NCBI GenBank assembly: GCA_020059745.1 | Contig: JAGVBK010000004.1 | Coordinates: forward strand, 178,511 to 242,510 | Reading direction: 5' to 3' | Source of the DNA: Candidatus Shapirobacteria bacterium | GTDB lineage: Bacteria > Patescibacteriota > Microgenomatia > UM-FILTER-40-11 | Length of the DNA stretch: 64,000 nucleotides | Shown here: positions 7,185 to 31,030 of the stretch, piece after piece | Position numbering within the stretch: the first letter of the stretch is position 1 | Layout: every line of letters begins with the position of its first letter | Translations under genes and position numbers: made by a program | Notes under the pieces: generated by a model | Told to the model about the DNA's origin: nothing | The model's database searches: none | Seen by the model: only the letters and a program-made list of their open reading frames with translations

Positions 7185-7221
7185 TAATTTATTTTAACCA
7201 ATTTGGTTTTTCTTGTAAATT

Positions 7222-16285: not shown

Positions 16286-16410
16286 ATTTATTAAATTCCA
16301 AATTCCAAGCTCCAAGTTCCAAAAAATTACCAATATTCAAATCCTAAATACTTGTTACATATTATTTGCTCCTTGGTTATTGGAATTTTTTGTTTCTTGT
16401 TTTTTGATTA

Positions 16411-17639: not shown

Positions 17640-19466
17640 TTAGCAGCTTTGAAATTCGTTGAGTCTTTGTAAAAAGTCTTCAGGAATATCAAGGATAAAT
17701 CTTGAGATTTGGTTGGCAGTTCTTTGTCCGAAAAAAAGCCTTTTTCTGGCGTAAATTAAGAAAAGATTTTCTTTTGCTCTGGTGATGCCCACATAGCAAA
17801 GCCTTCTTTCTTCCTCAAGCTCGCTGTTATCAAGAAGGCTTCTTGAATGAGGGAACAGGCCTTCTTCCATGCCAATCATAAAAACAACCGGAAACTCTAG
17901 CCCCTTGGCCGCATGCAAGGTCATTAAGGTAACTGCTTCTCCTTTTTTGTTCTTGGCTTTTTCAGAAAGGTATTCTTCTTCAACCAAGGCCACATTTTCT
18001 AAAAAGTCATTTATTTCCGGAAACTGAGTGGCAACAGAGCGAAGCTCTTTTATGTTTTCAAGCCTCGATAAATCCTCCTCGATTTCAGGATTATAAAGCT
18101 CAAGATAAGAGCTAACCTGTAAAACTTCTTCAAGAAGTTCAAGGGTTTTCCTATTTATAAAATTTTGGTCACCTTCAAAGCGGTTTTCTCTCCAGGTCAT
18201 AAATTTTTGCAATTTTCCCTTACCCAGTTTTTCCGCTCTTTTTAAGGAAACAAGGTCCTTTGGGTTTACAAGAAGCCTGAGATAGGAAAGCACATCTTTA
18301 ATTTCTTTTCTTTGGTAAAACCTGGTGCCGCCAACAAGTAAGTAAGGAATACCGGAATGTAAAAACATTTCTTCTAAAATTCTTGACTGAGCGTTTGTCC
18401 GGTAAAGAACCACAAAATCAGAAAGCTTATATTCTTTCAACAAAGCCTTTATTTTTTCTACCACAAAACTGGCTTCATTAAGTTCGCTTTCTGCTTCAAA
18501 AAGACAAATTTTTTCGCCCTTTTTGTTTTCTGTCCAAAGCTTAAGAATGGGGTGTGAAGAGTTCTTAGAAATAACAGAATAAGCGACATCAAGAATTATC
18601 TGTGTTGAGCGGTAATTTTGCTCCAGGTTTATGACTTTTATTTCCGGGAAATCTCTTTTTAAATTCAGCAAATTTCTGAAGTTTGCCCCCCGCCAGCCAT
18701 AAATACTTTGGGAAGCATCGCCAACCACGGTCAGGTTTCGGTAGCGGCCGGAAAGGAGCTTGGTAAGCACATACTGGGCGTGGTTTGTGTCCTGGTATTC
18801 GTCCACTAAAACATATTGATACTGATTTTGGTATTTTCCAAGTGTTTCGGGAAACTTTTTAAAAATATCAACGGTTTTAAAAATTAGGTCATCAAAATCA
18901 AGAGCAGAATTTTCCCTTAAAAGCCTTTGATATTCAAGGTAAATTTGTGCTACCCCTTTTTGCCAAGGAGTGCGGGCATATTGGGGGTATTCAAGTTCTG
19001 AGATAAGCTCATTTTTAGCTTGGGAAATTGTATTAAGCACTGATGAAGGCTTGTAGTCTTTAACTGAAAAACGAAGCTTGCTTATAATTTCCTTAGCTGC
19101 TTCTACCTGATCTGTTTCATCATAAATTAAAAAGTTACGCGAAAATCCCAAAAGCTCCCCTTCTTTTCTTAAAAGCTTGGCGCAAAAAGAATGAAAAGTA
19201 CCGGCATAAGGAATTTCTTTCTTTTTTTCAGCATTTTTTATTAGGTTTTCAATTCTTTCTTTCATTTCTCCGGCAGCTTTGTTGGTAAAAGTAAGAAGAA
19301 GAATATTTTCTGAAAGAATTTGCTTTTCTTTAACAAGATAAGCTGCCCGGTGGGTTAGGGCCCGGGTTTTGCCGCTACCGGCTCCGGCTAAAATAAGCAA
19401 AGGACCGTTTCCAAAGGAAACCGCCCGTTGTTGAGAGGAATTCAAGTTTGCTAAAATATCTTCCAT
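17640..19466 (-). CDS. pcrA: ATP-dependent DNA helicase PcrA/UvrD (compact, 608 aa)
   Basis: QQRAVSFGNGPLLILAGAGSGKTRALTHR, DEYQDTNHAQY, VVGDASQSIYGWRGA, LHAAKGLEFPVVF, YVGITRAK. Confidence 0.85.
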   Translation of the reverse strand: MEDILANLNSSQQRAVSFGNGPLLILAGAGSGKTRALTHRAAYLVKEKQILSENILLLTFTNKAAGEMKERIENLIKNAEKKKEIPYAGTFHSFCAKLLRKEGELLGFSRNFLIYDETDQVEAAKEIISKLRFSVKDYKPSSVLNTISQAKNELISELEYPQYARTPWQKGVAQIYLEYQRLLRENSALDFDDLIFKTVDIFKKFPETLGKYQNQYQYVLVDEYQDTNHAQYVLTKLLSGRYRNLTVVGDASQSIYGWRGANFRNLLNLKRDFPEIKVINLEQNYRSTQIILDVAYSVISKNSSHPILKLWTENKKGEKICLFEAESELNEASFVVEKIKALLKEYKLSDFVVLYRTNAQSRILEEMFLHSGIPYLLVGGTRFYQRKEIKDVLSYLRLLVNPKDLVSLKRAEKLGKGKLQKFMTWRENRFEGDQNFINRKTLELLEEVLQVSSYLELYNPEIEEDLSRLENIKELRSVATQFPEINDFLENVALVEEEYLSEKAKNKKGEAVTLMTLHAAKGLEFPVVFMIGMEEGLFPHSRSLLDNSELEEERRLCYVGITRAKENLFLIYARKRLFFGQRTANQISRFILDIPEDFLQRLNEFQSC

Positions 19467-20406
19467 GGTAAAAAAACTCCTGCCTTATTTTTTTGGGGTA
19501 CTCTTGATTTTACTATTTTCCGGAGGTTTTTTGTGGGGTTATTATATCAAAAAAAGCTATTTTAAGAAGCTGCCCGAGAAAGAGCCGGGAAGAACAAACT
19601 TTCTTCTTTTGGGGGTTAATGATTCGCAATCAGAAGTAGCTGACCTTACAGATACAATAATTTTTCTTTCAGTTGATCCGGTCGCCAAAAAAGCCTACCT
19701 TGTTTCAATCCCCAGAGATTTATGGGTACCGGAAATGCAAGCAAAGATTAACACAGCCTATCATTACGGCGGTTTTGATTTAGCCAGAAAATCAGTTGAG
19801 GATATTTTAGGCCAAAAGATTGATCGGGTAGTGGTTTTAGGCTTTGACGGTTTTGTGGAAGCCGTGGATATAATCGGTGGTGTTGAAGTTGAGGTACTTA
19901 AAAGCTTTGATGACTATAAATACCCAATTGCCGGCAAAGAAAAAGATCTCTGCAACGGAGACCCTTCGTACAGGTGCCGTTATGAGCACATCCATTTTGA
20001 CGCCGGCAGACAAGAAATGAACGGCACAACTGCACTGAAATTTGTAAGAAGCAGAAACGCAGAAGGAGAAGAAGGTACGGATTTTGCCCGCTCTCTAAGG
20101 CAGCAGCAGTTAATTAAGGCGGTAAAAGAAAAACTGCTAACTAAAGAGGTAATGTTTTCGCCTGAAAAAATTAGCGGCTTAATAGGTGTTTTTAAAAAGG
20201 TAACTAAGTCTGACATTGATCCCTCAGAATACGGAAGTTTGCTTGTTCTTTTTTCGAAAATTGACTGGGACAGCATGAAAACAACCTCCTTAGGAGAAGA
20301 TCTTATATTTCATCCAGCAAACCATAGTTCAAAACAATGGGTTATGGTAACCAGGACAGGAGATTGGCAACAAACCCGCGATTTTATTAAGGACTTTTTA
20401 AAATAA
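19465..20406 (+). CDS. LytR-CpsA-Psr (LCP) family cell-wall polymer phosphotransferase
   Basis: An N-terminal TM anchor is followed by the LCP core RTNFLLLGVNDSQ...TDTIIFLSVDPVAKKAYLVSIPRDLWV. Confidence 0.75.
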   Translation: MVKKLLPYFFGVLLILLFSGGFLWGYYIKKSYFKKLPEKEPGRTNFLLLGVNDSQSEVADLTDTIIFLSVDPVAKKAYLVSIPRDLWVPEMQAKINTAYHYGGFDLARKSVEDILGQKIDRVVVLGFDGFVEAVDIIGGVEVEVLKSFDDYKYPIAGKEKDLCNGDPSYRCRYEHIHFDAGRQEMNGTTALKFVRSRNAEGEEGTDFARSLRQQQLIKAVKEKLLTKEVMFSPEKISGLIGVFKKVTKSDIDPSEYGSLLVLFSKIDWDSMKTTSLGEDLIFHPANHSSKQWVMVTRTGDWQQTRDFIKDFLK

Positions 20407-22533
20407 TTCGTAAACTGAGGCCTCGCCGCTTTTAAAGACTTTTTTTCCGATTTTCTCAAATTTAGCCTCATTAAGCTGGGGATATTTTTGCTTCTCAAGC
20501 TTTGAGATAAAGACATACTTTACTTCATATTTTTTAAGAAGTTCTTTTACCTGGTTTATATTAGACGATTCGTAAATAGTTTTAACTTCCCCTGATCTTT
20601 TTCCCGGCTCGTCAAAAGAGCCACGCCAAAGCCACTCGTGAACAAGCCAGCCTTGGACAGTAGGTAAACCGGTGGCCATGGAAACACGGTTATAGTCGGT
20701 GTAGCTGTCCCCAACCGCTTCTAAAACCACAGGCTGTCCTTTGATATTTTTGTTTAGCCAGTTTATGGCTTCATAATCACCGGGATATTCTCTTTTGAGG
20801 AAATTAAGGCCGTAAAGACCTTTGTAATTTTCTTTTTTAAGATCTCCGTAATAACCTTTAATTGAATATAAAGGATAAACAGCAAGTGAAGAGAAAATTA
20901 AAAAAAACAAAAAAGACACAGTTTTTCTTACTAAAACTCTTTTAATTTGAGAAGCAACTCTAAACATGATGTAACCGGAAAGAAGCGAAAACATGACAAA
21001 GCTTTGGTAGGTCAGCTTAAACATGGTGTTGGCTCGGTGGTAGGAGGCAATATAAATGTCCTTAAGGTAAATTATTTCTGGAATGATTATTAAGAATGTA
21101 GCTACGGCAAAAAGAATTAAAGCAAAGCTGTCAGCAGCCGGAAGCGTTTTCAGGTTAAAATTTAAGGTTTTTGGCACCTTTCTAAATACTCTTTTTACTA
21201 AAGAAACTATTTCTTTACCAAAGAGATAGCTTATAAATAAAACACCCAAAGCCCAAGGCGCTCCCCATAAAATAAGCAGTTGATAAAAACGCGATCGGCT
21301 GTTAACTAAGGCTACTCCTTTGGCGATTGATTCAAAACCAAGTTGAAAGGGAAGAATAAGCGGAATCACGGCCACAATAACTAAAAAACAAGTCAAAGCG
21401 GTTTTAAAAAAAGCCTCTCTTAATTTGTGGTGATAGGAATATCCTGCCAAAAGGGTTAACCCTAGAGCTAAAAGATAGATTGGAAAATCCCACTGGTTGG
21501 TCATGTACATGATTGAAAGAAGAGGAGAAAACAAAAAAGGCAGAAATCGATTTCTATTATTTTCCTTAAGAGAAAGAAAAAGGTTCAGAAGCAGGGCAAT
21601 AAAAAGAAAAACAAAAGGAAGATCAGAAACATGGCCGTGAAGATCGGAAACAACAAAAGAGTATGAAGGAAATTCATGAATTGTTTTATCTTCAACATCG
21701 GGACAATAACCAATATAGCGGGTTGCATTTGGGTACCAATAAAAAGAAGCTCCGTCGCAATAAGGTATTTTTAAAAGGCTCATTTTAACATTGTAAAAAG
21801 CAGGGTGAAGATTAGCTCCCAAAGAGACAAGGACAGAAGAAGCCAAACCGGCAAAAACTAAAAGATAGGATTTGCCAAAAGAAAAGCGAAGAGATTTTTC
21901 TTTAGTTAAGAGATAAAAAAGATTTCCGGTTATTGAAAAAGCTAAAGAAAAAGTAAAGGAAAAAAGCGTGGCAATCATTAGGTTATAGGTAATGGCAGAA
22001 TCAAGACCGGAAAGTTTAGTGAGAAAAGCAGCGATAAAATGGCCAAAATAATAATAATTTATGGATTTTCCGGCAAACCAGATATCCGGGGGAGGCATAA
22101 ACTTGCTTCTTAAGGCTGAGTTAACAAAACCAAAATCCATGAATTTTTCCAAGCCTTGGATATCTGGCTGAAACCCGCGGACAAGCCCCCAAGCGACCAA
22201 AGCACCTAAAAAAAGAAACTCTTCTCCGCTTAAGATAATTAAGAAAGAACGGTCAAGTTTAAACTTTTCTTTATTTTTAACAAATAAAAGCAGGTTAAGA
22301 GCAAGTCCAAAAACTAAAACCAAAAAAACACTTTCTCTGAAAAAGGGCAAAAGCTTAAGCGAGGCCAAAAGCCACACTAAATATGAAGAGAAAAGTATTC
22401 CGATTACCTTGGCAAAAAGATAGCCTTTATCAAAAAACCTGCCAAAAATTACCATCGCCGTTGGCAGAAAGCCAAGGCCGATTATAAAAATAAAAAACCA
22501 CCACCAGAGGATATTTCCAAAATCAGAAAGCAT
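20398..22533 (-). CDS. large polytopic membrane protein, DUF2298 / 'chlor_Arch_YYY' domain family (putative GT-C-like glycosyltransferase)
   Basis: The 711-aa protein has more than 12 TM segments and the signature SINYYYFGHF (the YYY motif), plus a C-terminal soluble domain of about 200 aa. Confidence 0.5.
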   Translation of the reverse strand: MLSDFGNILWWWFFIFIIGLGFLPTAMVIFGRFFDKGYLFAKVIGILFSSYLVWLLASLKLLPFFRESVFLVLVFGLALNLLLFVKNKEKFKLDRSFLIILSGEEFLFLGALVAWGLVRGFQPDIQGLEKFMDFGFVNSALRSKFMPPPDIWFAGKSINYYYFGHFIAAFLTKLSGLDSAITYNLMIATLFSFTFSLAFSITGNLFYLLTKEKSLRFSFGKSYLLVFAGLASSVLVSLGANLHPAFYNVKMSLLKIPYCDGASFYWYPNATRYIGYCPDVEDKTIHEFPSYSFVVSDLHGHVSDLPFVFLFIALLLNLFLSLKENNRNRFLPFLFSPLLSIMYMTNQWDFPIYLLALGLTLLAGYSYHHKLREAFFKTALTCFLVIVAVIPLILPFQLGFESIAKGVALVNSRSRFYQLLILWGAPWALGVLFISYLFGKEIVSLVKRVFRKVPKTLNFNLKTLPAADSFALILFAVATFLIIIPEIIYLKDIYIASYHRANTMFKLTYQSFVMFSLLSGYIMFRVASQIKRVLVRKTVSFLFFLIFSSLAVYPLYSIKGYYGDLKKENYKGLYGLNFLKREYPGDYEAINWLNKNIKGQPVVLEAVGDSYTDYNRVSMATGLPTVQGWLVHEWLWRGSFDEPGKRSGEVKTIYESSNINQVKELLKKYEVKYVFISKLEKQKYPQLNEAKFEKIGKKVFKSGEASVYELF

Positions 22534-22610
22534 GATGATATTTTAAATAAATTAGCTTCAAGTTTCAATTCTTAAAGCTAAAGATTAATGTATAATCAAA
22601 GTTAGAAAAA

Positions 22611-23162
22611 ATGAAAAAGAATAAAATAAAAATTGCCTTTGATTTGGACGGGGTAATTGTCAACAAACCTCCCTTGGTTCCTAAAAGATTGCTGGAATGG
22701 TTGTTTAAAGGAGGCGGAAGCAGGCTTCATTACCGTTTTCCCCATTCAAACCTTGAGCAGATGATAAGAAAAATTTCCCACTTTTATTTGTTTAGGCCGC
22801 CGATGGGAAAAAACATTAATTTTATTAAAAAAATTGCCAAAGACGATGATTATGAGCTTTATATTGTTTCTTCCCGATACTCCTTTTTAAAAAGGGAAAC
22901 AGAAATATGGCTTGAAAAAAGAAACCTTGAAAAACTATTTAAAAAAATTTATCTTAACGAAAAGAACGAACAGCCTCATTTGTTTAAAGAAAAAGTTTTA
23001 AAGGAAATAAAACCAGACATTTTTATTGACGATGACGAGGCAATTGTAGATTATCTTTGCCAAAAGACAAAAACCCATATTTATTGTTTTTCTTTAAAAA
23101 AAGTAACTCCCAAACCCGAAACAAACCTTTTTCTTAGTAGCCTTGAATTACTCTTCCGATGA
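22611..23162 (+). CDS. HAD-superfamily hydrolase-like protein
   Basis: HAD motif I IAFDLDGVI at the N-terminus and FIDDDE near the C-terminus. Its stop overlaps the next gene's start (ATGA). Confidence 0.45.
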   Translation: MKKNKIKIAFDLDGVIVNKPPLVPKRLLEWLFKGGGSRLHYRFPHSNLEQMIRKISHFYLFRPPMGKNINFIKKIAKDDDYELYIVSSRYSFLKRETEIWLEKRNLEKLFKKIYLNEKNEQPHLFKEKVLKEIKPDIFIDDDEAIVDYLCQKTKTHIYCFSLKKVTPKPETNLFLSSLELLFR

Positions 23163-24289: not shown

Positions 24290-25067
24290 ACCTGACCCGG
24301 CTTTTGCAAGAAGGGCTGAAATAATTATTGAAAACCTTGAACTTAAAAAAGGAGATAAAGTTATTGATATTGGCTGCGGCCGGGGCTTTTATATTAATTT
24401 TCTGAGCCAGCTAAATCTTGGTCTTGAAATCTTTGGAATAGACCAAAACGAAAAATATTTAAAAGTAGCCAAAAAGAACCTTGGCGGAAAAAAGGTTTTT
24501 TTAAATAGGGGTAATGCACTAAATCTTCCTTTTAAAGCAAACTTTTTTGATAAAGTTATTGCCTCAGAAATACTCGAGCATATTAATGATGATGTAAAAG
24601 CTCTTGAAGAAATGTACCGGGTCTTAAAGCCTGGTGGAATTATTTTAATTAGTGTCCCCAATCAAAATTACCCCTTTTTTTGGGATCCTTTAAATTGGAC
24701 ACTTGAAAGAGTTTTTAGAAAGCACATTCCTTCTCACCTTTGGTGGCTTGCTGGTATTTGGGCAGACCATGTCAGGCTTTACAAAGAAAGGGAATTAAAG
24801 GAAAAACTAAAAAAAGCTGGTTTTAGGATCAAGGGTTTCTGGTGCGCTACTCATTTTTGTTTCCCCTTTTCCCATTTTATTTTGTACGGAATAGGAAAAA
24901 ATCTTGTTGAAAAGGGACTCTTAAAAGATTTTAACCGTTTTTATAGAGATGACAATCAGTCGTTTTTTAACAAGATTTTATTATGGCCGGCAAGAAAAAT
25001 CGATTTTTTAAATTCAAAAGACGATTATAAAGTTTCGGTTAATTTGATTTGTAAAGCCATTAAATAG
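24267..25067 (+). CDS. class I SAM-dependent methyltransferase
   Basis: Motif I VIDIGCGRGFY and motif post-II LKPGGIILISVPN. It overlaps the upstream GT4 gene by 23 nt. Confidence 0.75.
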   Translation: MKKFLKTEPDPAFARRAEIIIENLELKKGDKVIDIGCGRGFYINFLSQLNLGLEIFGIDQNEKYLKVAKKNLGGKKVFLNRGNALNLPFKANFFDKVIASEILEHINDDVKALEEMYRVLKPGGIILISVPNQNYPFFWDPLNWTLERVFRKHIPSHLWWLAGIWADHVRLYKERELKEKLKKAGFRIKGFWCATHFCFPFSHFILYGIGKNLVEKGLLKDFNRFYRDDNQSFFNKILLWPARKIDFLNSKDDYKVSVNLICKAIK

Positions 25068-25069
25068 CA

Positions 25070-26461
25070 ATGAGGAGTTTTCTGAATATTAAGAAAAAAA
25101 AGCTTCCTGATTTGATTTTTTTTACCTTTTTAATATTTGTCTTTGGATTTGCCTTATTTATTAGAATTTGGAAATTAACGGAAACGCCTTCTGTAATCAA
25201 CGGTGATGAACAAGGCAGTTTGGTTCACCCCTGGCAGATAATTCTTGGCCAATTAAAACCATTTGACCTAACCCACGATGGTAGTATTCCGGCCATAGTT
25301 TACTATCCCAAGGCTCTTTTTGTAGTTTTATTAGGAATTGAAAACTCCTTGTTGGCGGCCCGCTTGGTATCAGTTATTTTCAGTATGGGAGCCTTGATTT
25401 TATTCTATCTTATTCTATTAAAAGAATTTTCGAGATGGACTTCGGCAGTTGCAACTCTTTTTTTTGCTTCTTCCTATTGGCTTTTGAATTTTTCTCGCCT
25501 TTCCTGGATTAGCGTGGACGGGCTTTTTTGGGGATTGTTTTTTTATTTTCTGCAGCAAAAGGCTCTTTTGTCCGGACAGCTGAGGTATTATGCTCTTAGC
25601 GGATTTGTGGCTAGCTTGGTGGCTGCTAATTACATGGGGACACGCATTTATCTTCTAGCTGGAATATTTTTACTTATAACCCAAGTATTTAAAAAAAAGA
25701 AAAAGGCTTTATATAATTTTTTAATTTTTATTTTGGTTTTCGTTCTTTCCTCTCTTCCTTTAATAAATTCAGTAATTAAAAGCAAAGAGAAATTTCTGTT
25801 AAGAGCAAACACGCTCTCCGTTTTTAATATAAGTTCTGATTACTATGGTATTCGTCCTGCTGATTTTTCAAAAATTCTTTCTCATCAAGTTATTTATACT
25901 TTTAGAGGTTTTGCACTTTTTGACGGAAGAGTTTCAGGAGAAGGATTTGAAAACAAACGATTAATTCCTTTGGGAAAATCAGCTGTTAGTCCGGCAATAA
26001 TAATTCTTTACTATGTTGGCCTGGCTTTGGCTATTAAAAGAAAAAGAAGTTCATTTTGGCTATTTATTTTGGTTATTAATTTTTTATTAGTCCAAGTTCT
26101 GTCGGTCTATATTCCTGCTTGGGCGCGTGGTATTGGAGTACTGCCTTCAATTTACTATTTCGTTGCCTGCGGTTTAGAGGAAATTTTAGTTATAGTTAAG
26201 AAAAAAGGTTTAACTTTCTTTGTTTTCGGGCTGCTTGTTCTATTTATAGTCATTCCTTATGGAGATTTTCAGACTTATTGGCAGTGGGTAAAAAGCGAAG
26301 AATTCGTTCAATTTCAAGAGCCGGCGGTAAAAATGATTGAATATGAGGATTGGCAAAAGCTGCAGTGGCGGTGGATGTCGGGTGCTCGTCATCCTTTTAC
26401 ACACTATCAGTGGCAAGATAAAAGCTTTAGGGAATATTTGGAAGATCAACAGTCTTTTTAA
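25070..26461 (+). CDS. GT-C superfamily membrane glycosyltransferase (ArnT/PMT-like)
   Basis: The 463-aa polytopic protein has a DE motif right after TM1 (VINGDEQGS). Confidence 0.5.
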   Translation: MRSFLNIKKKKLPDLIFFTFLIFVFGFALFIRIWKLTETPSVINGDEQGSLVHPWQIILGQLKPFDLTHDGSIPAIVYYPKALFVVLLGIENSLLAARLVSVIFSMGALILFYLILLKEFSRWTSAVATLFFASSYWLLNFSRLSWISVDGLFWGLFFYFLQQKALLSGQLRYYALSGFVASLVAANYMGTRIYLLAGIFLLITQVFKKKKKALYNFLIFILVFVLSSLPLINSVIKSKEKFLLRANTLSVFNISSDYYGIRPADFSKILSHQVIYTFRGFALFDGRVSGEGFENKRLIPLGKSAVSPAIIILYYVGLALAIKRKRSSFWLFILVINFLLVQVLSVYIPAWARGIGVLPSIYYFVACGLEEILVIVKKKGLTFFVFGLLVLFIVIPYGDFQTYWQWVKSEEFVQFQEPAVKMIEYEDWQKLQWRWMSGARHPFTHYQWQDKSFREYLEDQQSF

Positions 26462-28127
26462 ATATCATTACTTTAGGGTGATCATAAACAGTGAAGGCTT
26501 CTTCTGAAGAGTCGTCGTTAAAACAAAAAAGAGATTTGGCAAACGGAGGAAAACAGGGATACGAGGTAAATTCAGCTACTTTTTCAAATCCAAGCGAGCC
26601 GTTAAAAAGCTTTTCATAATATTTGGCGGTTTGGCTGTAATACTCCGGATTTTTGGGGATTGAACCGTAAAGCCGGTTTGAAGAAAGAACAATATAGTCT
26701 GTTTTTTCTAGTTGAGCATTAATTTTTTCCCATTTTTGATTGCTTTCTGGATCATACAAAGAAAGCATTTCATATTTAAACTTGCTGTGGTTTTCGTTAG
26801 GCAGGAGAAGCGGTAAAGGATCGTCCCAGTGTTCATTGGTAATTGTTGAGCCTATGGGAATGTTTCTGTATATCCATCTCGAAGCGCTAATCCTGGTAAC
26901 GGGTTTGGTATAAATTGAGATAAAAGACAAAGGATAGATGAGAACGGAAAGGAAAATAAGTACTTTAAAAAGTTTATTTTTAATTCTTTCAAACTGCCAG
27001 GCAGAAAATAGGGCTAAAAAGGGGTAAAGAAAAAGGAAATACCGCATTGTTTTTACTTGTTGAATTCCTAGATAAAAAAGTAAGATTGCCGTCCAGCCTA
27101 AAGCAGCAAAAACAAAGAAGCTTTTATTAATTTTTTTTACCGCCAGAAAAAAAAGCCGGAAAAAAGAGAAAAAACTGAAAACCCCTAAAGGCAACCCCAG
27201 TCCCCAAAGCAAAAGATTTTTAAGTGGAAAGAAAACAGGAGTTGTTTTTTTCCACTGAACTGAGGGAGGAAACCAGGAGCTAGGGTCGTTAAAAGATTTT
27301 AACTGTTTTAAATTCAGTAAAAACTGGGGATTAAGATTGGGGGTTAAAAAATTGCCGTTCGTAAAAAAAGAGGGCTGGCATATTCTTAAAGTAAGGTAGA
27401 AAAAGAAGGCTGCCAAAAGTCCAGACAATAATATTTTTTTTATTTTTTCTCCCGACTTGAGAAGGTAGAGGTAAAAAAGCAAGATAACCGGGGAAAAATA
27501 TATTGCTGAAATTTTTGAAGTCATGGCCAGCCCAAAAGAGATTCCCAAAGAAGGACTTAGCCAAAGAAAAACTTTCTTTTTATTATTTATCAAAATCAGA
27601 AGATAAAAGCAAAGGATAATGAAAAAATTTAAGTATGTGTCAACCGCAAAAAAATGGGAAAGCTGTATTGGCAAAACCATGACAGAATAAAAAAATGCAG
27701 CAAAAAGCCCGGCTTTTTCTGAGAACAGTCTTTTTCCTATTAAGTAAACAAGGCAAACTACGCCTAAATCAAAAAAAGCAGAAAAGAACCGACCAACAAG
27801 GTAAAGGCTGCTGTAGGTATCACGGTTTAAAATCAAGCTTGCTGCTTTAACAAAATAAACAGGAAAAGTACCGTAAACATAAAAATTGTATCCGTTGTTA
27901 TAGGGATTTAGTGAAGATTTGGCAGGGTTTAGGTAATCGAGCAAATTTTCAGGAAATCTTATATCAACGCTTACCATGGTTAAGAATCTTTCGTCAGGGT
28001 GCAGATGCTGTCCTTGGTCCCAGTTAATTCCAAACAAGCGTAAAAAACCTGCCAATACCAGGACCATCAGCAAAACAAGTTTTTGGTTTTTATTAAAAAA
28101 GCTTTTAATTTTTAAAAAGTTCTTCAT
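26427..28127 (-). CDS. GT-C superfamily membrane glycosyltransferase (ArnT/PMT-like), tandem paralog A
   Basis: The 566-aa protein has HLHPDERF after TM1 and a C-terminal periplasmic domain (ASRWIYRNIP...) homologous to the neighbouring gene. Confidence 0.55.
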   Translation of the reverse strand: MKNFLKIKSFFNKNQKLVLLMVLVLAGFLRLFGINWDQGQHLHPDERFLTMVSVDIRFPENLLDYLNPAKSSLNPYNNGYNFYVYGTFPVYFVKAASLILNRDTYSSLYLVGRFFSAFFDLGVVCLVYLIGKRLFSEKAGLFAAFFYSVMVLPIQLSHFFAVDTYLNFFIILCFYLLILINNKKKVFLWLSPSLGISFGLAMTSKISAIYFSPVILLFYLYLLKSGEKIKKILLSGLLAAFFFYLTLRICQPSFFTNGNFLTPNLNPQFLLNLKQLKSFNDPSSWFPPSVQWKKTTPVFFPLKNLLLWGLGLPLGVFSFFSFFRLFFLAVKKINKSFFVFAALGWTAILLFYLGIQQVKTMRYFLFLYPFLALFSAWQFERIKNKLFKVLIFLSVLIYPLSFISIYTKPVTRISASRWIYRNIPIGSTITNEHWDDPLPLLLPNENHSKFKYEMLSLYDPESNQKWEKINAQLEKTDYIVLSSNRLYGSIPKNPEYYSQTAKYYEKLFNGSLGFEKVAEFTSYPCFPPFAKSLFCFNDDSSEEAFTVYDHPKVMIFKKTVDLPNIP

Positions 28128-29811
28128 ATTGATTTCTGTTTAAAAATTTTTCTTTTTTGTAGATTCTTATGGTTGGGTGGTCAAAAACACTAAAGGTTTC
28201 CTCGGCCATTTCGTCAAAAATTAAGGGGTTATAGGAAATTTCTTTTATTTTGACAAATCCAAGTTTGCCGGAAAAGAGAAGTTGGTAGTATTTGGCAGTC
28301 AGAGGAAACCTTTCCGTCAATCTTTGGTGGTTGGCAAAGATTCTTCTTGAAGGCACAAAGATATAATCAGATTTTTCCAAAGATAAAAGCAGCTGTTCAA
28401 ATACTTTTTTTTCTTCGTCAAGTCTGTAAAAATCAAAAGAAACCGGAGAAAGTCTGAAATTACGAGCGTAAAAGTCTTGAGGAAAAACAGGAATATCAAT
28501 TACGTTTCCGGTTTCAGAAAGAACCCTGCTTCCTGAGGGAATATTTTTAAAAATCCACCTCGAGGCTTTAAAGCGGATATCTTCTCTCAAATATATTGAG
28601 GAAAAAAGAACCCCTGGTATTAAAGCTAAAAAGACAACACCGGCCAGCATACTCCTTAGAGGTTTTACTTTGGTACTGATTTTTTCAAGAAAATATGCTG
28701 AAAAAATCGAGAAAAAAGAAAAAATTGGGGCCATGAAACGGGTCCATTTACAAAACAAGAACGATTGGTAAAAAAAGAAAACAAGGAAAGAAATAAACAA
28801 AATTAAAAATCCTTTATCTATTTCCGGCTTTCTTTTTTTAAGAAACCAACTGGTAAGCTGAAAGGCAAAGTAAAAAATACCGGCAAGGCCAAGCAAAAAC
28901 ACTATCGGCCCTAGGGCAAAAGGAAAGATTTTTTTAAGTTGAAAAAGAGCGGGGGTTGTTTTTATAAACTGTCTGGTGTAAAAAACGGGAATTTTGCCTG
29001 TTGCTACCAGGGTTTCATAGGAGAGGATTCTTCTTGTTTCTTCAAACTCAAGCAAAAAATAAGGAGAAGAAATTAGAAAAAAAACGGCAGCGATAATCAA
29101 AAAAAACAAAAAATAAGAGATTTGGTTTAAAAGCTGGTTCCATTTCTTTTCCTTGACTGAGGAAAAAATTTTAAGCAAAGATAAAAACCCAATCGGAGCC
29201 AAAAAAAGAAGCGAGCTTATTTTTGTCCCCAAAGCCAGACCAAAGACAATTGAGGAAAAAAAATAGTATTTTAACGAGTCTTTTTCGTTGATTTTAAAAG
29301 AAAAGTAAATCAGGAGAAGGAAAAAGAAGCCCAGAAGAGATTCAGTGGTACCAAAGTGGGCAGACTGAATTAATCCCGGAGAAAAAGCGGCCATAGCAGC
29401 AGCAACCAGGGGGAAATATTCCCTGACCATTTTTTTAGAAAGGATATAGACAAGATAAACAGAGGCAACTCCGGCCAGAGCAGACCAGAACCTTAAGAAA
29501 AATATTGCCTCGTTAATGCTAATACTTTTAAGCTCTATCCAGGGAAGAAGATTATAAAGCTTTGCTGAAAAAAAAGAAAGGTAAAGAGGAAACTGGCCAT
29601 AAGCAAAAAAATTCGGATTAAGCTTGTTTTCAAGAGAAAGCCCGTTTATGGCCGCTGCCATGTTCCACTCGTCAGGATGAAAATGAAAAGGCAGCCCCCA
29701 GGAAATACCGGTAAACCTCAAAGAAAAAGCAAAAAAGAGAATTAAAAGGATTATCTTATTAGCGCTCTTTTTTAACTTCATCGGCAATTTTTTCGGCAAT
29801 TTTGATTGCAT
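28105..29811 (-). CDS. GT-C superfamily membrane glycosyltransferase (ArnT/PMT-like), tandem paralog B
   Basis: The 568-aa protein has HFHPDEW after TM1. Its C-terminal domain (ASRWIFKNIP...KYYQLLFSGKLGF) aligns with paralog A (KYYEKLFNGSLGF). Confidence 0.55.
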   Translation of the reverse strand: MQSKLPKKLPMKLKKSANKIILLILFFAFSLRFTGISWGLPFHFHPDEWNMAAAINGLSLENKLNPNFFAYGQFPLYLSFFSAKLYNLLPWIELKSISINEAIFFLRFWSALAGVASVYLVYILSKKMVREYFPLVAAAMAAFSPGLIQSAHFGTTESLLGFFFLLLIYFSFKINEKDSLKYYFFSSIVFGLALGTKISSLLFLAPIGFLSLLKIFSSVKEKKWNQLLNQISYFLFFLIIAAVFFLISSPYFLLEFEETRRILSYETLVATGKIPVFYTRQFIKTTPALFQLKKIFPFALGPIVFLLGLAGIFYFAFQLTSWFLKKRKPEIDKGFLILFISFLVFFFYQSFLFCKWTRFMAPIFSFFSIFSAYFLEKISTKVKPLRSMLAGVVFLALIPGVLFSSIYLREDIRFKASRWIFKNIPSGSRVLSETGNVIDIPVFPQDFYARNFRLSPVSFDFYRLDEEKKVFEQLLLSLEKSDYIFVPSRRIFANHQRLTERFPLTAKYYQLLFSGKLGFVKIKEISYNPLIFDEMAEETFSVFDHPTIRIYKKEKFLNRNQYEELFKN

Positions 29812-31030
29812 AGTTTATTCCTCTGTCTTCTGGATAGACATGGTGTAAAGATGCCCAGTATAGCCCGGAAACTGAAGTGGTAATTTTAGGCAAACGGTAA
29901 GAATAATTCAAGGAAACAACAGGCTGGGCATACTCCTCTTTGAATAGCCAAGATTTTTTTATCTTAATGTTGGGATTGATTTTTTTAAGGAAAGGGGTAA
30001 ATTTTTGTAAAACCTTGTCTTTTGTTAAAGAAAAAATCGGGTTATCCAGCGAATAGTAACCGCCGATATAAACAAGTATTTCATTGCCGTATTTTTCCTT
30101 CTCAATATAGTTTGTGTGTTCAACCACTGCCACAAAAGGATATGAAGAGTCGTTCACATTAAGCCAGTAAGTGCCGTCATTAAGCAGGTGGCGGTCAAGT
30201 GAAATAATAAGGCAAAGGCTCCCCAGGGACTTAAGGGAAGAAAGGTAGGCCTTTTCTTCTTGGCTTAGGTCCTCTGACATTTTTGAAAAGTGACAGGGAG
30301 GAACGGTAACAATTACCTTGTCAAAAAGATATTTTTTCTCTGCCTGTAGTTCAAACTTCTTCCCAATTTTTTTTATTGTTTTTACCTCTGAATTAAGTAA
30401 AATTTGCCCTTTGTTTTTAAGAATATTTTTTTCAAGGTTTGAAACTAGAGTTTGCGTTCCGCCTTCAAAATAACCTAAAGAAAAGCTCCTTTTTTTAACC
30501 CTTGTCCAAAACCAGGAAGCAGGAATATCTAAAAAATCTTTTCCAAACTTGCTTTCCAAAAGCGGCTTCCAGATAAGGTTATAAGTATTTTTCCCCATTG
30601 TTTTTTTTATAAAAGAATAAGCTGGGATTTTTTCCAGGGGTTTCCAGTTATTGTTGAGCTTAAGCCCTAAGACAGTAAGCCCTGTTCTCAGCTTGTCGAT
30701 AATGCTTAACTTTGGAAAAGAAAGGATGCTTTGAGGATTGTCAAAACGGTAAATTTTTCCATCCACCAAGACTGATGTTTTAGGATTTTTAAAAAATAGC
30801 TTATCTTGAATCCTCAGGCTTTTGCAAAGGTCAAAGAGTTCCTGATCTGAAGTAAAAAAATGGTGATAAAACTTTTCAAGACTCCACTGCCAAGCGTTTT
30901 CTTTGAAAAAGGAAGCCAAGCCACCTAAGGTTTTTTCTTTTTCAAAAATATAAACTTCATGGCCTTTTCTTGAAAGAAGGTAAGCGCTGGCTAGTCCGGT
31001 AATTCCGCCGCCGACAACTGCAATTTTCAT
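29759..31030 (-). CDS. FAD/NAD(P)-binding oxidoreductase, amine-oxidase / UDP-galactopyranose-mutase-like (GR2 Rossmann family)
   Basis: The N-terminal dinucleotide-binding motif is MKIAVVGGGITGLASAYLL...FEKEKTLGG. The segment YHHFFTSDQ resembles Glf/protoporphyrinogen-oxidase-type enzymes. Confidence 0.55.
   Translation of the reverse strand: MKIAVVGGGITGLASAYLLSRKGHEVYIFEKEKTLGGLASFFKENAWQWSLEKFYHHFFTSDQELFDLCKSLRIQDKLFFKNPKTSVLVDGKIYRFDNPQSILSFPKLSIIDKLRTGLTVLGLKLNNNWKPLEKIPAYSFIKKTMGKNTYNLIWKPLLESKFGKDFLDIPASWFWTRVKKRSFSLGYFEGGTQTLVSNLEKNILKNKGQILLNSEVKTIKKIGKKFELQAEKKYLFDKVIVTVPPCHFSKMSEDLSQEEKAYLSSLKSLGSLCLIISLDRHLLNDGTYWLNVNDSSYPFVAVVEHTNYIEKEKYGNEILVYIGGYYSLDNPIFSLTKDKVLQKFTPFLKKINPNIKIKKSWLFKEEYAQPVVSLNYSYRLPKITTSVSGLYWASLHHVYPEDRGINYAIKIAEKIADEVKKER

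What the first reader, a model, noticed from the sequence alone, without database searches (positions are those of the whole stretch)
19465..31030. Second envelope-glycosylation block: five GT-C membrane glycosyltransferases (one tandem paralog pair, one YYY/DUF2298) with LCP, GT4, SAM-MTase, HAD and a Glf-like FAD oxidoreductase
Within 12 kb there are an LCP ligase, a DUF2298 protein with the SINYYYFGHF motif, a HAD-GT4-MTase-GT-C operon with overlapping or adjacent stops and starts, two divergently duplicated GT-C paralogs (HLHPDERF and HFHPDEW after TM1, with alignable C-terminal periplasmic domains), and a Rossmann-type FAD enzyme resembling UDP-galactopyranose mutase/amine oxidases. Together with the 3.4-8.7 kb block, this is an unusually large investment in lipid-linked glycan transfer for a reduced genome. 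It may define an uncharacterised wall glycopolymer (furanose-containing, methylated).
Basis: partly seen in the sequence, partly recalled or inferred. Interest (0 to 1): 0.65.

Follow-up and report, generated by a model that had tools for sequence, protein, structure and literature searches.

The report
Conserved CPR envelope-glycosylation locus with orphan flavoenzyme
This is a real cell-envelope sugar-attachment gene cluster conserved across Microgenomates bacteria; it has four rather than five membrane glycosyltransferases, and its flavoenzyme is not a galactofuranose mutase but an uncharacterised family that always sits beside lipid-linked-sugar machinery in two bacterial phyla.

Summary
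Three details are wrong. The interval holds four GT-C-type proteins, not five; a fifth lies in the 3.4-8.7 kb block. The paralog pair is tandem on one strand. The FAD enzyme is not Glf-like.

The FAD enzyme belongs to the unnamed NCBIfam family PRK07233. Its fold matches protoporphyrinogen oxidase, phytoene desaturase and amine oxidases. UDP-galactopyranose mutase matches only the FAD-binding N-terminus.

The source is a Candidatus Microgenomates bacterium. Related genomes keep the order surface protein - FAD - GT-C (one or two) - (HAD/GT4/MTase) - DUF2298 - LCP. The GT-C duplication predates the divergence of those lineages.

In Chloroflexota the same flavoenzyme follows an MprF-type flippase-like protein, often with a UDP-sugar dehydrogenase.

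A DUF2298 model matches only GT-C enzymes (DPY19, STT3, AglB).

Best reading: an extracytoplasmic glycosylation system fed by polyprenyl-phosphate-linked donors. The cytoplasmic flavoenzyme would modify the lipid-linked substrate before flipping. The acceptor is a wall glycopolymer and/or the Ser/Thr/Pro-rich stalk of the adjacent wall-anchored protein.

The furanose idea survives only through a separate DPPR-synthase-like UbiA at 3409-4338. The chemistry is unproven. Interest is moderate.

The parts
31054..32439 (-). Surface protein with N-terminal TM/signal, fn3/Pur_ac_phosph_N, CarboxypepD_reg and Big_13 domains, a Ser/Thr/Pro-rich stalk (65% STP around residues 372-411), an LPDSG sortase-like motif and a C-terminal TM. 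It lies 23 nt upstream of the FAD gene and is a candidate glycosylation acceptor.
   Evidence: Pfam. STP stalk in 20/20 orthologues, with an [LI]PxxG-type motif in most. Directly upstream of FAD in 16/23 Microgenomates-type loci. Junction.
29759..31030 (-). Cytoplasmic FAD-dependent oxidoreductase of NCBIfam family PRK07233 (NF005560), in the amine-oxidase/PPO/phytoene-desaturase fold class. It has no TM segment or signal peptide. Invariant motifs are WFWxRxKKR (173-181) and YPxDRG (399-404). It is not Glf.
   Evidence: 450 bits against cutoff 252; pLDDT 94.9.
28105..29811 (-). GT-C-type membrane glycosyltransferase, PMT_2-like, paralog B (first-copy clade). HPDE at residues 45-48 follows TM1. 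It has a C-terminal extracytoplasmic domain of about 160 aa. Its start overlaps the end of the FAD gene.
   Evidence: (44 bits against GA 26.1).
26427..28127 (-). GT-C-type membrane glycosyltransferase, PMT_2-like, paralog A (second-copy clade). HPDE at residues 43-46 follows TM1.
   Evidence: (48.6 bits).
25070..26461 (+). Shorter GT-C-type membrane protein (463 aa), a distant homologue of the paralog family. GDE at residues 45-47 follows TM1. It is the last gene of the HAD-GT4-MTase operon.
   Evidence: PMT_2 20.8 bits, below GA; hhalign 98.2%, E 5.9e-14, 390 columns.
24267..25067 (+). Class I SAM-dependent methyltransferase (Methyltransf_11; nearest NCBIfam is DVU_1556-like, below its cutoff).
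   Evidence: The same MTase type is fused to a GT2 upstream of the flippase-FAD pair in Anaerolinea locus L076.
23159..24289 (+). Cytoplasmic GT4-family (GT-B fold) glycosyltransferase.
22611..23162 (+). HAD-superfamily phosphatase-like protein. Motifs DxDGV, S87, K126/128 and DD140-141 are present. The substrate is unknown.
   Evidence: Weak Pfam hits below cutoff. No NCBIfam or PDB hit. Motifs read from the translation. Syntenic in 8 loci.
20398..22533 (-). DUF2298 / TIGR03662 'chlor_Arch_YYY' membrane protein (711 aa). The predicted fold is GT-C, nearest to DPY19, STT3 and AglB, including an AglB-like C-terminal globular domain. Invariant motifs are NYYYFGH (159-165) and GWxVHEWLWRG (628-638).
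   Evidence: 543 bits; pLDDT 86.7.
19465..20406 (+). LCP (LytR-CpsA-Psr) phosphotransferase with an N-terminal TM. It is convergent with DUF2298 and overlaps it by 9 nt.
   Evidence: The DUF2298-LCP pair is conserved (DUF2298 in 16/17 loci, LCP in 13/16).
3409..4338 (-). Possibly connected, in block 1: a UbiA-family enzyme most similar to decaprenyl-phosphate 5-phosphoribosyltransferase (DPPR synthase).
   Evidence: 208.9 and 204.5 bits against cutoffs 234 and 207. (the only PDB hits are 8j8j/8j8k, E 3e-32).
4284..8697 (-). Possibly connected, in block 1: a WecA/MraY-family polyprenyl-phosphate sugar-1-phosphate transferase (4284-5372), a 116-aa multi-TM protein (5372-5722), a fifth GT-C-like protein (5712-7184) and a membrane GT2 (7222-8697).
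   Evidence: hhalign 95%, E 3e-8 to the paralog family.

Best explanation
The interval is the core of a lineage-wide Microgenomates (CPR) locus for extracytoplasmic glycosylation of the cell envelope, fed by polyprenyl-phosphate-linked donors.

Inferred cytoplasmic steps: a GT4 transferase, a SAM methyltransferase, a HAD-type phosphatase and a peripheral flavoenzyme of the uncharacterised PRK07233 family build or modify a lipid-linked sugar.

Shown by homology, topology and fold: four GT-C-type integral membrane proteins are present. Three are PMT_2-like, with a DE motif at the outer end of TM1. The fourth is DUF2298, whose model resembles STT3, AglB and DPY19.

Inferred: these proteins transfer the sugars outside the membrane. 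The LCP enzyme then ligates a polyprenyl-diphosphate-linked glycan to peptidoglycan or to a wall-anchored protein.

The flavoenzyme is not a UDP-galactopyranose mutase. It lacks a signal peptide and is always encoded next to a membrane protein that handles lipid-linked sugars. In Microgenomates that neighbour is a GT-C; in Chloroflexota it is an MprF-type flippase-like protein. It most likely oxidises or reduces the lipid-linked substrate, either the sugar head group or the polyprenyl chain, on the cytoplasmic face just before translocation.

The acceptor is either a wall glycopolymer or the Ser/Thr/Pro-rich stalk of the surface protein co-transcribed upstream. Neither the sugar nor the acceptor is established.
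For: - Family assignments.
- GT-C status: the paralog-family profile hits only STT3A and ArnT in the PDB. The 463-aa protein matches that family at 98% hhalign probability. The DUF2298 model (pLDDT 86.7) has DPY19, STT3, AglB and the AglB C-terminal domain as its only significant matches.
- Topology: N-terminus inside, TM1, then DE within about 10 residues.
- Synteny in type-M loci: surface protein directly upstream of FAD in 16/23, DUF2298 in 16/17, LCP in 13/16. A GT-C directly downstream of FAD in 12/22, and the A5 GT-C-like family fills that slot in further loci.
- The paralog split has 100/100 bootstrap support with gene order conserved.
- Chloroflexota: flippase-like PF03706/TIGR00374 directly upstream of FAD in 27/34 loci and a UDP-sugar dehydrogenase directly downstream in 12/29.
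- L008 has DUF2298, two PMT_2, two flippase-like genes, FAD and UGDH together.
- A published Chloroflexi neighbourhood lists DUF2298, PMT2, a Rossmann protein and PMT2 (PMC8756737).
- FAD is cytoplasmic: the GxGxxG motif is at residues 7-12 and there is no TM-like window.
- FAD/parB and parB/parA overlaps suggest translational coupling.
Against: - No experiment exists for any of these families. DUF2298 has essentially no literature.
- No nucleotide-sugar synthesis gene and no obvious polyprenyl-phosphate-sugar synthase (GT2 of the DPM1/GtrB type) lies inside the interval. The only GT2 is 14 kb away.
- The paralogs' relatives in TIGR03663 (Agl23) are described as flippase-associated rather than as transferases.
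- The PDB profile hits for the paralogs are weak (E 0.002-0.02), and Foldseek TM-scores for DUF2298 are low (0.27-0.41).
- Conserved synteny in small CPR genomes partly reflects general genome colinearity, since UvrD, FemAB, PilNO and MurJ are also syntenic. Adjacency alone therefore overstates functional linkage.
- The cross-phylum FAD association is with different partner families in the two phyla.
Confidence: 0.6

Rival explanations
1. One reading: the FAD enzyme is a Glf-type UDP-galactopyranose mutase, and the block makes a galactofuranose-containing, methylated wall glycopolymer.
For: - Single-sequence phmmer hit to C. jejuni UNGM 4mo2 over residues 5-230, E 8e-6.
- UGM belongs to the same broad flavoenzyme fold class and appears in the Foldseek list (3ukk, E 1e-19).
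- An MTase is present in the locus.
Against: - No PF03275 GLF domain.
- The family profile matches UGMs only over the N-terminal 58-70 residues, while PF1083 and MAO-A align over about 270-300 residues.
- UGM ranks 47th in the fold search, behind PPO, PDS, LAAO and MAO.
- UDP-Galf is a cytoplasmic donor for GT-A/GT-B enzymes, not for GT-C enzymes, which use lipid-linked donors (established knowledge of the families).
Confidence: 0.07
2. Protein O-glycosylation: the PMT_2-like GT-Cs glycosylate the Ser/Thr/Pro-rich stalk of the co-transcribed sortase-anchored surface protein, as actinobacterial Pmt does with polyprenyl-phosphate-mannose. LCP may add a glycan to the same protein, as LcpA does for GspA in Actinomyces oris.
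For: - The surface-protein gene lies 23 nt upstream of FAD, in the same direction.
- It is directly upstream of FAD in 16/23 related loci.
- All 20 orthologues have a 60-82% STP stalk and a C-terminal TM, and most have an [LI]PxxG motif.
- PMT_2 family membership of the paralogs.
- LCP-mediated glycosylation of a wall-anchored protein is documented (PMC6381275).
Against: - STP-rich wall-spanning stalks are common in wall-anchored proteins whether or not they are glycosylated.
- Synteny extends to unrelated genes (PilN/O, MurJ), so adjacency could be colinearity.
- In Chloroflexota the FAD module occurs without this protein.
- No sortase gene was seen in the window.
Confidence: 0.3
3. Arabinogalactan-like pentofuranose pathway. 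The DPPR-synthase-like UbiA (3409-4338) makes polyprenyl-phospho-5-phosphoribose and the HAD phosphatase removes the 5-phosphate. The flavoenzyme stands in for DprE1 and oxidises the 2'-OH. The GT-Cs act like Aft/Emb/TfpW arabino- or ribofuranosyltransferases on a WecA-primed polymer that LCP then ligates to peptidoglycan.
For: - UbiA: the only PDB hits are M. tuberculosis DPPR synthase, E 3e-32, with the NDxxDxxxD region conserved. Its NCBIfam scores are just below the equivalog cutoffs.
- A WecA-like gene is adjacent to the UbiA.
- The component list parallels the mycobacterial pathway: WecA, UbiA, a phosphatase, FAD-dependent DprE1, GT-C AraTs and Lcp1 (PMC7502851). It also parallels P. aeruginosa TfpW (bioRxiv 10.1101/2020.04.19.049825).
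- In M. tuberculosis dprE1-dprE2-aftA-embCAB are contiguous by Rv numbers.
Against: - The flavoenzyme is not homologous to DprE1. DprE1 is a vanillyl-alcohol-oxidase-type flavoenzyme (established knowledge), whereas this one has an amine-oxidase/PPO-type fold.
- No DprE2-like reductase is in the window.
- No UbiA homologue lies within 10 kb of the FAD gene in any of the 85 loci.
- In Chloroflexota the partner is a UDP-sugar dehydrogenase or phosphohexomutase, which points to hexose or uronate chemistry.
Confidence: 0.15
4. The flavoenzyme acts on the lipid carrier, not the sugar. It would be a phytoene-desaturase/RetSat-like saturase or desaturase that alters polyprenyl phosphate, for example alpha-saturation to a dolichol-like carrier. 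The archaeal-type GT-Cs (DUF2298, TIGR03663-like) might require such a carrier.
For: - The best TM-score (0.85, rmsd 3.5) is to rice phytoene desaturase, a monotopic enzyme acting on long isoprenoids.
- The nearest solved sequence relatives are uncharacterised archaeal proteins PF1083 and 3ka7.
- DUF2298/TIGR03662 and TIGR03663 are families shared by Chloroflexi and Archaea, judging by their model names.
- The archaeal Dol-P alpha-reductase is unknown (PMC5088576).
- The invariant Trp/Arg/Lys-rich helix WFWxRxKKR is compatible with interfacial binding of a phosphorylated lipid (inference).
Against: - No lipid data exist for these organisms.
- Many invariant residues are polar or aromatic (H57, D62, D97, K161, Y187, Y288, Y314, Y321, Y325, Q369), which is more typical of a sugar- or phosphate-binding pocket than of a hydrophobic tunnel (inference).
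- PPO and amine oxidases score as well as PDS by E-value.
- Frequent adjacency to UDP-sugar dehydrogenase suggests sugar chemistry.
Confidence: 0.15
5. The PMT_2-like paralogs are Agl23-like lipid-linked-sugar flippases rather than glycosyltransferases. On this reading the FAD enzyme is paired with a flippase in both phyla.
For: - The paralogs' only NCBIfam hits include TIGR03663 (Agl23).
- H. hispanica Agl23 is proposed to flip hexose-P-dolichol, and the purified protein flips M5GN2-PP-Dol in liposomes (PMC11182771).
- In Chloroflexota the gene next to FAD is a flippase-like protein.
Against: - The TIGR03663 scores are 15-16 bits against a cutoff of 126, so the paralogs are not members.
- The invariant HPDE motif, together with conserved R, K and H residues, is what a catalytic GT-C site looks like.
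- A conserved C-terminal extracytoplasmic domain of about 160 aa suggests acceptor binding.
Confidence: 0.12

Closest known systems
Mycobacterial arabinogalactan assembly (WecA, UbiA/DPPR synthase, DprE1/DprE2, GT-C AftA/Emb, Lcp1) and P. aeruginosa TfpW pilin arabinosylation
   Same: The logic and parts list match: a polyprenyl-phosphate GlcNAc-1-P transferase, a DPPR-synthase-like UbiA, an FAD enzyme encoded beside multiple GT-C transferases, and an LCP ligase.
   Different: The flavoenzyme has an unrelated fold (amine oxidase/PPO-type, not DprE1). There is no DprE2. The GT-Cs are PMT_2-like or DUF2298, not Emb/Aft families. The UbiA is 15 kb away and is never linked to the FAD gene in other genomes.
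Three-component periplasmic glycosylation systems (GtrA/GtrB/GtrC, CsbB/YfhO, ArnC/ArnEF/ArnT) and actinobacterial Ppm1/Pmt protein O-mannosylation
   Same: A lipid-phosphate-sugar donor is made in the cytoplasm, flipped, and used by a PMT_2/ArnT-like GT-C with an acidic motif in the first outer loop. In Chloroflexota the GT2 + flippase-like + UDP-sugar dehydrogenase context resembles the Arn and Rgt pathways.
   Different: No flavoenzyme is part of those systems. No GT2 donor synthase lies inside this interval. There are up to four GT-Cs in one locus.
Archaeal/Chloroflexi TIGR03662 (chlor_Arch_YYY, DUF2298) and TIGR03663 (Agl23) gene pair
   Same: DUF2298 here is a full-length member (543 bits). 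It is encoded near PMT-like membrane proteins with a DE motif, which mirrors the pairing implied by the two family models.
   Different: The PMT_2-like proteins here score far below the TIGR03663 cutoff (15-16 against 126 bits). The host is a CPR bacterium with peptidoglycan, LCP and FemAB genes.
Actinomyces oris LcpA/GspA/SrtA surface-glycoprotein pathway
   Same: An LCP enzyme and a sortase-type wall-anchored protein sit in one glycosylation context.
   Different: No GT-C or flavoenzyme is known in that pathway. The link here rests on synteny only.
Protoporphyrinogen oxidase (HemY), phytoene desaturase (PDS/CrtI) and monoamine oxidase flavoenzymes
   Same: Same three-domain fold (TM 0.77-0.85) and the same N-terminal dinucleotide-binding motif.
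   Different: Identity is only 15-17%. Scores fall below every curated PPO, CrtI and HpnE family cutoff. The genomic context is glycan-related, not tetrapyrrole or carotenoid, and CPR bacteria are not known to make either (own knowledge).

Membership tests
GT-C glycosyltransferase superfamily (PMT_2 / ArnT-PMT type): paralogs A and B | Sequence match to a GT-C family model above its curated cutoff | tested here: met
   PF13231 PMT_2 at 48.6 and 44.0 bits against GA 26.1. The family profile's best PDB hits are STT3A (E 0.0019) and ArnT (E 0.019).
GT-C glycosyltransferase superfamily (PMT_2 / ArnT-PMT type): paralogs A and B | Cytoplasmic N-terminus, multiple TM helices, and a conserved acidic motif (DE/DxD) in the first extracytoplasmic loop | tested here: met
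   K/R-rich N-terminus, TM1 at 14-37 and 18-40, and an invariant H-P-D-E at 43-46 and 45-48. Topology comes from hydropathy and the positive-inside rule only.
GT-C glycosyltransferase superfamily (PMT_2 / ArnT-PMT type): paralogs A and B | GT-C fold and use of a polyprenyl-phosphate-linked donor | not tested
Donor use cannot be tested with these tools.
GT-C superfamily: 463-aa protein (25070-26461) | Homology to a GT-C family | tested here: met
   Pfam PMT_2 at 20.8 bits is below GA. hhalign to the paralog family gives 98.2% probability, E 5.9e-14 over 390 columns, with GDE aligned to PDE.
GT-C superfamily: DUF2298 | GT-C fold (structural similarity to solved GT-C enzymes) | tested here: met
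DUF2298 / TIGR03662 chlor_Arch_YYY | Full-length match above cutoff, with the YYY motif | tested here: met
   TIGR03662 at 543 bits against 300.25, covering model positions 1-726 of 727. PF10060 at 343 bits. NYYYFGH is invariant in 33 sequences.
TIGR03663 / Agl23 (flippase activity-associated) | Match above the curated cutoff | tested here: not met
   14.9 and 16.5 bits against a cutoff of 126.25.
UDP-galactopyranose mutase (Glf) | GLF domain (PF03275) and similarity to UGM beyond the FAD-binding N-terminus | tested here: not met
   No GLF hit. The family profile aligns to UGMs over residues 2-58 or 2-70 only. UGM is at Foldseek rank 47.
Protoporphyrinogen oxidase, phytoene desaturase, HpnE | Match above the curated equivalog cutoff | tested here: not met
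   TIGR00562 at 61.1 against 97.85. TIGR03467 at 66.1 against 283. crtI_fam at 47 against 238. The fold is shared but family membership is not.
NCBIfam NF005560 (PRK07233, unnamed FAD oxidoreductase family) | Full-length match above cutoff | tested here: met
   450 bits against 252, covering residues 1-422 and model positions 1-431 of 435.
DprE1 (decaprenylphosphoryl-ribose 2'-oxidase) | Homology to the FAD_binding_4 / vanillyl-alcohol-oxidase-type flavoenzyme family | tested here: not met
   None of the Pfam, NCBIfam or PDB hits of the FAD protein belongs to that family. Only a functional analogy can be considered.
LCP (LytR-CpsA-Psr) phosphotransferases | LCP domain above cutoff, with an N-terminal membrane anchor | tested here: met
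   PF03816 at 125.9 bits. TIGR00350 at 105.6 against 62.3. TM-like segment at residues 1-28.
Decaprenyl-phosphate phosphoribosyltransferase (DPPR synthase; block-1 UbiA) | Match above the equivalog cutoff | tested here: inconclusive
   208.9 against 234 and 204.5 against 207 bits, just below cutoff. The only PDB hits are 8j8j and 8j8k at E 3e-32. All other UbiA subfamilies score 45 bits or less, except the HAD-UbiA fusion family NF006088 (151.8).
HAD-superfamily phosphatase | Four HAD motifs and a family-model match | tested here: inconclusive
   Motifs I-IV can be read in the sequence. Pfam hits at 17.6-20.9 bits are below their cutoffs. There is no NCBIfam or PDB match.

The most novel reading that the evidence does not exclude
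PRK07233-family flavoenzymes are a previously unrecognised, obligatory cytoplasmic step of lipid-linked glycosylation in Chloroflexota and Microgenomates. They would modify either the polyprenyl-phosphate carrier itself (for example alpha-saturation to a dolichol-like lipid, the prokaryotic counterpart of the still-unknown archaeal Dol-P alpha-reductase) or the lipid-linked sugar. On this reading DUF2298 is a new oligosaccharyltransferase-like GT-C acting with LCP.
Probability: 0.15. Interest if true: 0.8.

Novelty: new variant of a known kind. Interest (0 to 1): 0.5.

Why it matters
CPR bacteria make up a large share of bacterial diversity, yet the chemistry of their envelope is almost unknown. 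This locus is conserved across Microgenomates lineages. It combines three families with no experimental characterisation: DUF2298, divergent PMT_2-like GT-Cs and the PRK07233 flavoenzyme.

The flavoenzyme's association with lipid-linked-sugar machinery holds in two phyla, with at least 596 matching stretches in species-representative genomes. That gives a concrete, testable handle, because culturable Chloroflexota such as Anaerolinea thermophila and Chloroflexus carry the same flippase-FAD module. If the enzyme acts on the carrier lipid, the result would bear on how prokaryotes saturate polyprenyl carriers, which is an open question.

If it is simply one more tailoring oxidoreductase, the finding is a useful annotation correction. 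The enzyme is currently labelled 'protoporphyrinogen oxidase' by JGI, in organisms not known to make haem.

Tried and rejected
1. Glf hypothesis. Rejected by Pfam, by the family profile against the PDB, and by Foldseek.
2. Flippase-FAD gene fusion as Rosetta-stone evidence. Long stop-to-stop ORFs in L025, L043 and L085 looked like fusions, but they are G+C-rich out-of-frame read-through with no flippase-domain hit.
3. Genomic linkage of the DPPR-synthase-like UbiA to the FAD gene. There is no UbiA hit within 10 kb in any of 85 loci.
4. Search for a DprE2-like reductase, epimerase or nucleotide-sugar enzyme elsewhere in the window. None was found; the rest is housekeeping.
5. Sequence-profile detection of DUF2298 relatives in the PDB found nothing. 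hhalign of DUF2298 against the paralog family gave only a 77-column local match at 66% probability.
7. Literature. There is nothing functional on DUF2298, PF1083/3NRN or 3KA7, and nothing on GT-C or DPPR synthase in CPR.
8. The HAD protein has no NCBIfam or PDB relative.
9. My first hydropathy segmenter produced overlapping TM segments, so total TM counts are not reliable. Only TM1 and the position of the first loop are used.

Full report
**Source and observation**

The window comes from a Candidatus Microgenomates bacterium (Patescibacteria/CPR). The FAD protein and the DUF2298 protein are each 100% identical to NCBI entries of that name, on a contig of 370,912 bp.

| Gene | Coordinates | Evidence |
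|---|---|---|
| LCP | 19465-20406(+) | PF03816, E 1.9e-36 |
| DUF2298 / TIGR03662 'chlor_Arch_YYY' | 20398-22533(-) | 543 bits against cutoff 300; SINYYYFGHF present |
| HAD-like | 22611-23162(+) | Pfam hits below cutoff; the four HAD motifs are readable in the sequence |
| GT4 | 23159-24289(+) | Pfam |
| Methyltransf_11 | 24267-25067(+) | Pfam |
| 463-aa membrane protein | 25070-26461(+) | PMT_2 at 20.8 bits, below the gathering score |
| PMT_2 paralog A | 26427-28127(-) | 48.6 bits |
| PMT_2 paralog B | 28105-29811(-) | 44.0 bits |
| FAD protein | 29759-31030(-) | Amino_oxidase |

HLHPDERF and HFHPDEW are present in paralogs A and B. The junctions are -4, -23 and +2 nt in the HAD-GT4-MTase-GT-C operon. 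They are -23 and -53 nt for parA/parB/FAD.

Three details are wrong:
- Only four GT-C-type proteins lie in the interval. A fifth weak candidate (5712-7184) belongs to the other block (PMT_2 E 1.2e-3; hhalign 95% to the paralog family).
- The paralogs are tandem on one strand.
- The FAD protein is not Glf-like (see below).

**Are the membrane proteins GT-C?**

- The paralogs are 30% identical along their whole length (E 1e-44).
- A 22-sequence family profile finds only STT3A (E 0.0019) and ArnT (E 0.019) among all PDB sequences.
- The 463-aa protein is a distant homologue of that family (hhalign 98.2%, E 5.9e-14, 390 columns, GDE aligned with PDE).
- In all of them a K/R-rich N-terminus is followed by TM1. 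The DE dipeptide comes within about ten residues, at the start of the first outside loop by the positive-inside rule. H-P-D-E is invariant in the family.
- DUF2298 has no detectable sequence relative in the PDB. An AlphaFold2 model built on 33 homologues has pLDDT 86.7 and pTM 0.91. Its eleven best Foldseek matches are all GT-C enzymes: DPY19 C-mannosyltransferase 2e-6, yeast STT3 1e-5, A. fulgidus AglB 6e-5, and the isolated AglB C-terminal globular domain at TMt 0.54. Everything after that is noise.

**The flavoenzyme**

- Pfam gives a full-length Amino_oxidase match (E 7e-29) and no GLF domain.
- NCBIfam places it in NF005560/PRK07233, a family without a functional name (450 bits against 252). 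PPO, CrtI and HpnE models all fall far below their cutoffs.
- The AlphaFold2 model is very confident (pLDDT 94.9).
- Foldseek ranks protoporphyrinogen oxidases first (1.8e-26, TM 0.81). Rice phytoene desaturase has the best TM-score (0.85, rmsd 3.5). L-amino-acid and monoamine oxidases follow, and the first UDP-galactopyranose mutase is at rank 47.
- With the family profile, the best solved relatives are the uncharacterised archaeal proteins PF1083 (8e-20, about 265 residues aligned) and 3ka7, then MAO-A. UGMs align only over the first 58-70 residues, which is the FAD-binding motif.
- The protein starts with GxGxxG at residues 7-12 and has no TM-like window, so it is cytoplasmic or peripheral.
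- Invariant residues in 34 homologues include WFWxRxKKR (173-181), Y288-W289 and YPxDRG (399-404).

**Conservation**

A scan of one genome per GTDB species found at least 596 stretches encoding a relative at about 40% identity. Nearly all are from Chloroflexota or from Microgenomates-group CPR: Levyi-, Shapiro-, Gottesman- and Daviesbacteria. Two context types emerge.

*Type M, Microgenomates (24 loci).* The order is surface protein - FAD - GT-C (one or two) - (HAD/GT4/MTase, variable) - DUF2298 - LCP (convergent) - UvrD - FemAB.
- The surface protein is directly upstream of FAD in 16/23 loci.
- DUF2298 is present in 16/17 and LCP in 13/16 loci that have enough flank.
- The gene directly after FAD belongs to the paralog family in 12/22 loci. 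In the loci where that profile found nothing, a third, more divergent GT-C-like family of about 548 aa fills the slot (A5, built from eight loci; hhalign 95.4%, E 1.8e-8).
- A neighbour-joining tree splits first-copy (parB-type) from second-copy (parA-type) genes with 100/100 bootstrap support, and gene order is conserved. Single-copy genomes group with the parA clade. The duplication therefore predates the divergence of these lineages.

*Type C, Chloroflexota (35 loci).*
- An MprF-type flippase-like protein (PF03706/TIGR00374) is directly upstream of FAD in 27/34 loci.
- A UDP-glucose/GDP-mannose-dehydrogenase-family gene is directly downstream in 12/29.
- Some loci add an MTase-GT2 fusion of the AglJ/Dol-P-hexose-transferase type, or a phosphohexomutase.
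- Locus L008 unites both types: DUF2298, two PMT_2, two flippase-like genes, FAD and UGDH.
- A published Chloroflexi neighbourhood lists DUF2298, PMT2, a Rossmann protein and PMT2 (PMC8756737).

A suspected flippase-FAD fusion proved to be frame read-through.

**The upstream surface protein**

Gene 31054-32439(-) lies 23 nt upstream of the FAD gene. It encodes fn3-like, CarboxypepD_reg and Big_13 domains, a Ser/Thr/Pro-rich stalk, LPDSG and a C-terminal TM.

All 20 orthologues examined keep a stalk that is 60-82% Ser/Thr/Pro, and all keep a C-terminal TM. Most have an [LI]PxxG motif. This makes protein O-glycosylation by the PMT_2-like enzymes a serious alternative to a wall glycopolymer. An LCP enzyme that glycosylates a wall-anchored protein is documented in Actinomyces oris (PMC6381275).

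**The other block and the furanose question**

The UbiA-family gene at 3409-4338 matches only M. tuberculosis decaprenyl-phosphate phosphoribosyltransferase among solved structures (E 3e-32). It scores just under the NCBIfam equivalog cutoffs (208.9 against 234 and 204.5 against 207).

It sits beside a WecA-like transferase, a small multi-TM protein, the fifth GT-C-like gene and a membrane GT2.

The parts list recalls mycobacterial arabinogalactan assembly and Pseudomonas TfpW (PMC7502851; bioRxiv 10.1101/2020.04.19.049825). It includes a WecA-like transferase, a DPPR-synthase-like UbiA, a phosphatase, an FAD enzyme beside GT-Cs, and LCP.

Three facts weaken that parallel:
- The flavoenzyme is not homologous to DprE1.
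- No DprE2-like gene is in the window.
- No UbiA homologue lies near the FAD gene in any of the 85 loci.

A pentofuranose donor is therefore possible. It is not tied to this flavoenzyme.

**Mechanism**

Shown:
- family memberships;
- GT-C homology and fold;
- DE-motif placement;
- cytoplasmic location of the flavoenzyme;
- tight, conserved adjacency of the flavoenzyme to membrane proteins of lipid-linked-sugar pathways in two phyla;
- an ancient paralog pair.

Inferred:
- Cytoplasmic enzymes (GT4, MTase, HAD, flavoenzyme) prepare a polyprenyl-phosphate-linked sugar.
- The flavoenzyme oxidises or reduces that substrate, either the head group or the isoprenoid chain, before flipping.
- The GT-Cs transfer sugars outside the membrane.
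- LCP ligates a diphosphate-linked glycan to peptidoglycan or protein.

I cannot decide between sugar and lipid as the flavoenzyme's target. The phytoene-desaturase-like fold and the archaeal relatives favour the lipid. The many invariant polar and aromatic residues, and the UDP-sugar dehydrogenase neighbour, favour the sugar. The archaeal Dol-P alpha-reductase is still unknown (PMC5088576), which gives the lipid reading its interest.

**Novelty and verdict**

DUF2298 has essentially no literature. Nothing functional was found on PF1083 or 3ka7, and nothing on GT-C or DPPR synthase in CPR.

The system is a new variant of a known kind, namely GT-C/LCP envelope glycosylation. Its distinctive feature is an orphan flavoenzyme partner conserved across two phyla.

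The 'five GT-C' count and the 'Glf-like, furanose' interpretation are not. Interest is moderate (0.5). It would be high if the flavoenzyme proves to modify the carrier lipid.

Noticed in passing
window 40184-40840 (+): VTT/DedA-domain membrane protein (PF09335, E 3e-12). From my own knowledge, DedA-family proteins have been implicated in undecaprenyl-phosphate recycling. That could be relevant to a genome with this many lipid-carrier-dependent transferases.
   Followed up: no
window 14442-14544 (+): An Rfam gathering-level hit to RF03531 ('C. difficile sRNA included into helicase gene', 68.3 bits) lies entirely inside the AddA-like UvrD/PDDEXK helicase ORF 12469-15477. It is most likely conserved coding sequence rather than an sRNA.
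   Followed up: partly
window 15449-16333 (-) and 16411-17439 (-): Two adjacent FemAB-family peptidyltransferase genes. The LCP-UvrD-FemAB arrangement is conserved in Microgenomates loci (e.g. L003, L012, L031, L036, L038). This suggests interpeptide-bridged peptidoglycan.
   Followed up: partly
window 32672-33888 (-), 33949-34314 (-), 34345-36021 (+): PilO, PilN, ribosomal protein S20 and MurJ flank the cluster. The same order recurs in L001 and L002, and PilN/PilO recur in L003. The glycosylation locus therefore sits between type IV pilus assembly genes and the lipid II flippase.
   Followed up: partly
L005 1-21269 and L084 4239-18377: In two other MAGs the FAD gene is preceded by three or four PMT_2 genes in a row. 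In L005 it is followed by an island of GT2, GT4, Mannosyl_trans2-like, DUF2304 and MTase genes. This is a much larger version of the same theme.
   Followed up: partly
L008 3-14594: A Chloroflexota contig carries DUF2298, a PMT_2 protein, a PMT_2 protein fused to an NHL beta-propeller (1093 aa), two flippase-like genes, the FAD gene and a UDP-sugar dehydrogenase together.
   Followed up: partly
L022, L046, L061, L084 (record titles): These MAGs are titled 'uncultured Gammaproteobacteria bacterium', yet L022, L046 and L061 show Microgenomates-type synteny and sequence. L084 shows the CPR-like PMT_2-array arrangement seen in L005. The bins are probably mislabelled.
   Followed up: no
window 59222-61537 (+): A 771-aa protein with a weak Baseplate_J-like match (E 1.9e-5) sits among housekeeping genes. 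Its function is unclear.
   Followed up: no
window 5372-5722 (-): A 116-aa multi-TM protein lies between the WecA-like gene and the fifth GT-C-like gene. Its size and position fit a GtrA/Rv3789-like small flippase or hub protein, but no Pfam or NCBIfam model matches it.
   Followed up: partly
window 29759-31030 (-), database names: JGI annotates this protein and many of its relatives as 'protoporphyrinogen oxidase'. It scores well below the curated PPO cutoff (61 against 97.85 bits) and sits in a glycan context, so the name is probably an over-annotation.
   Followed up: yes
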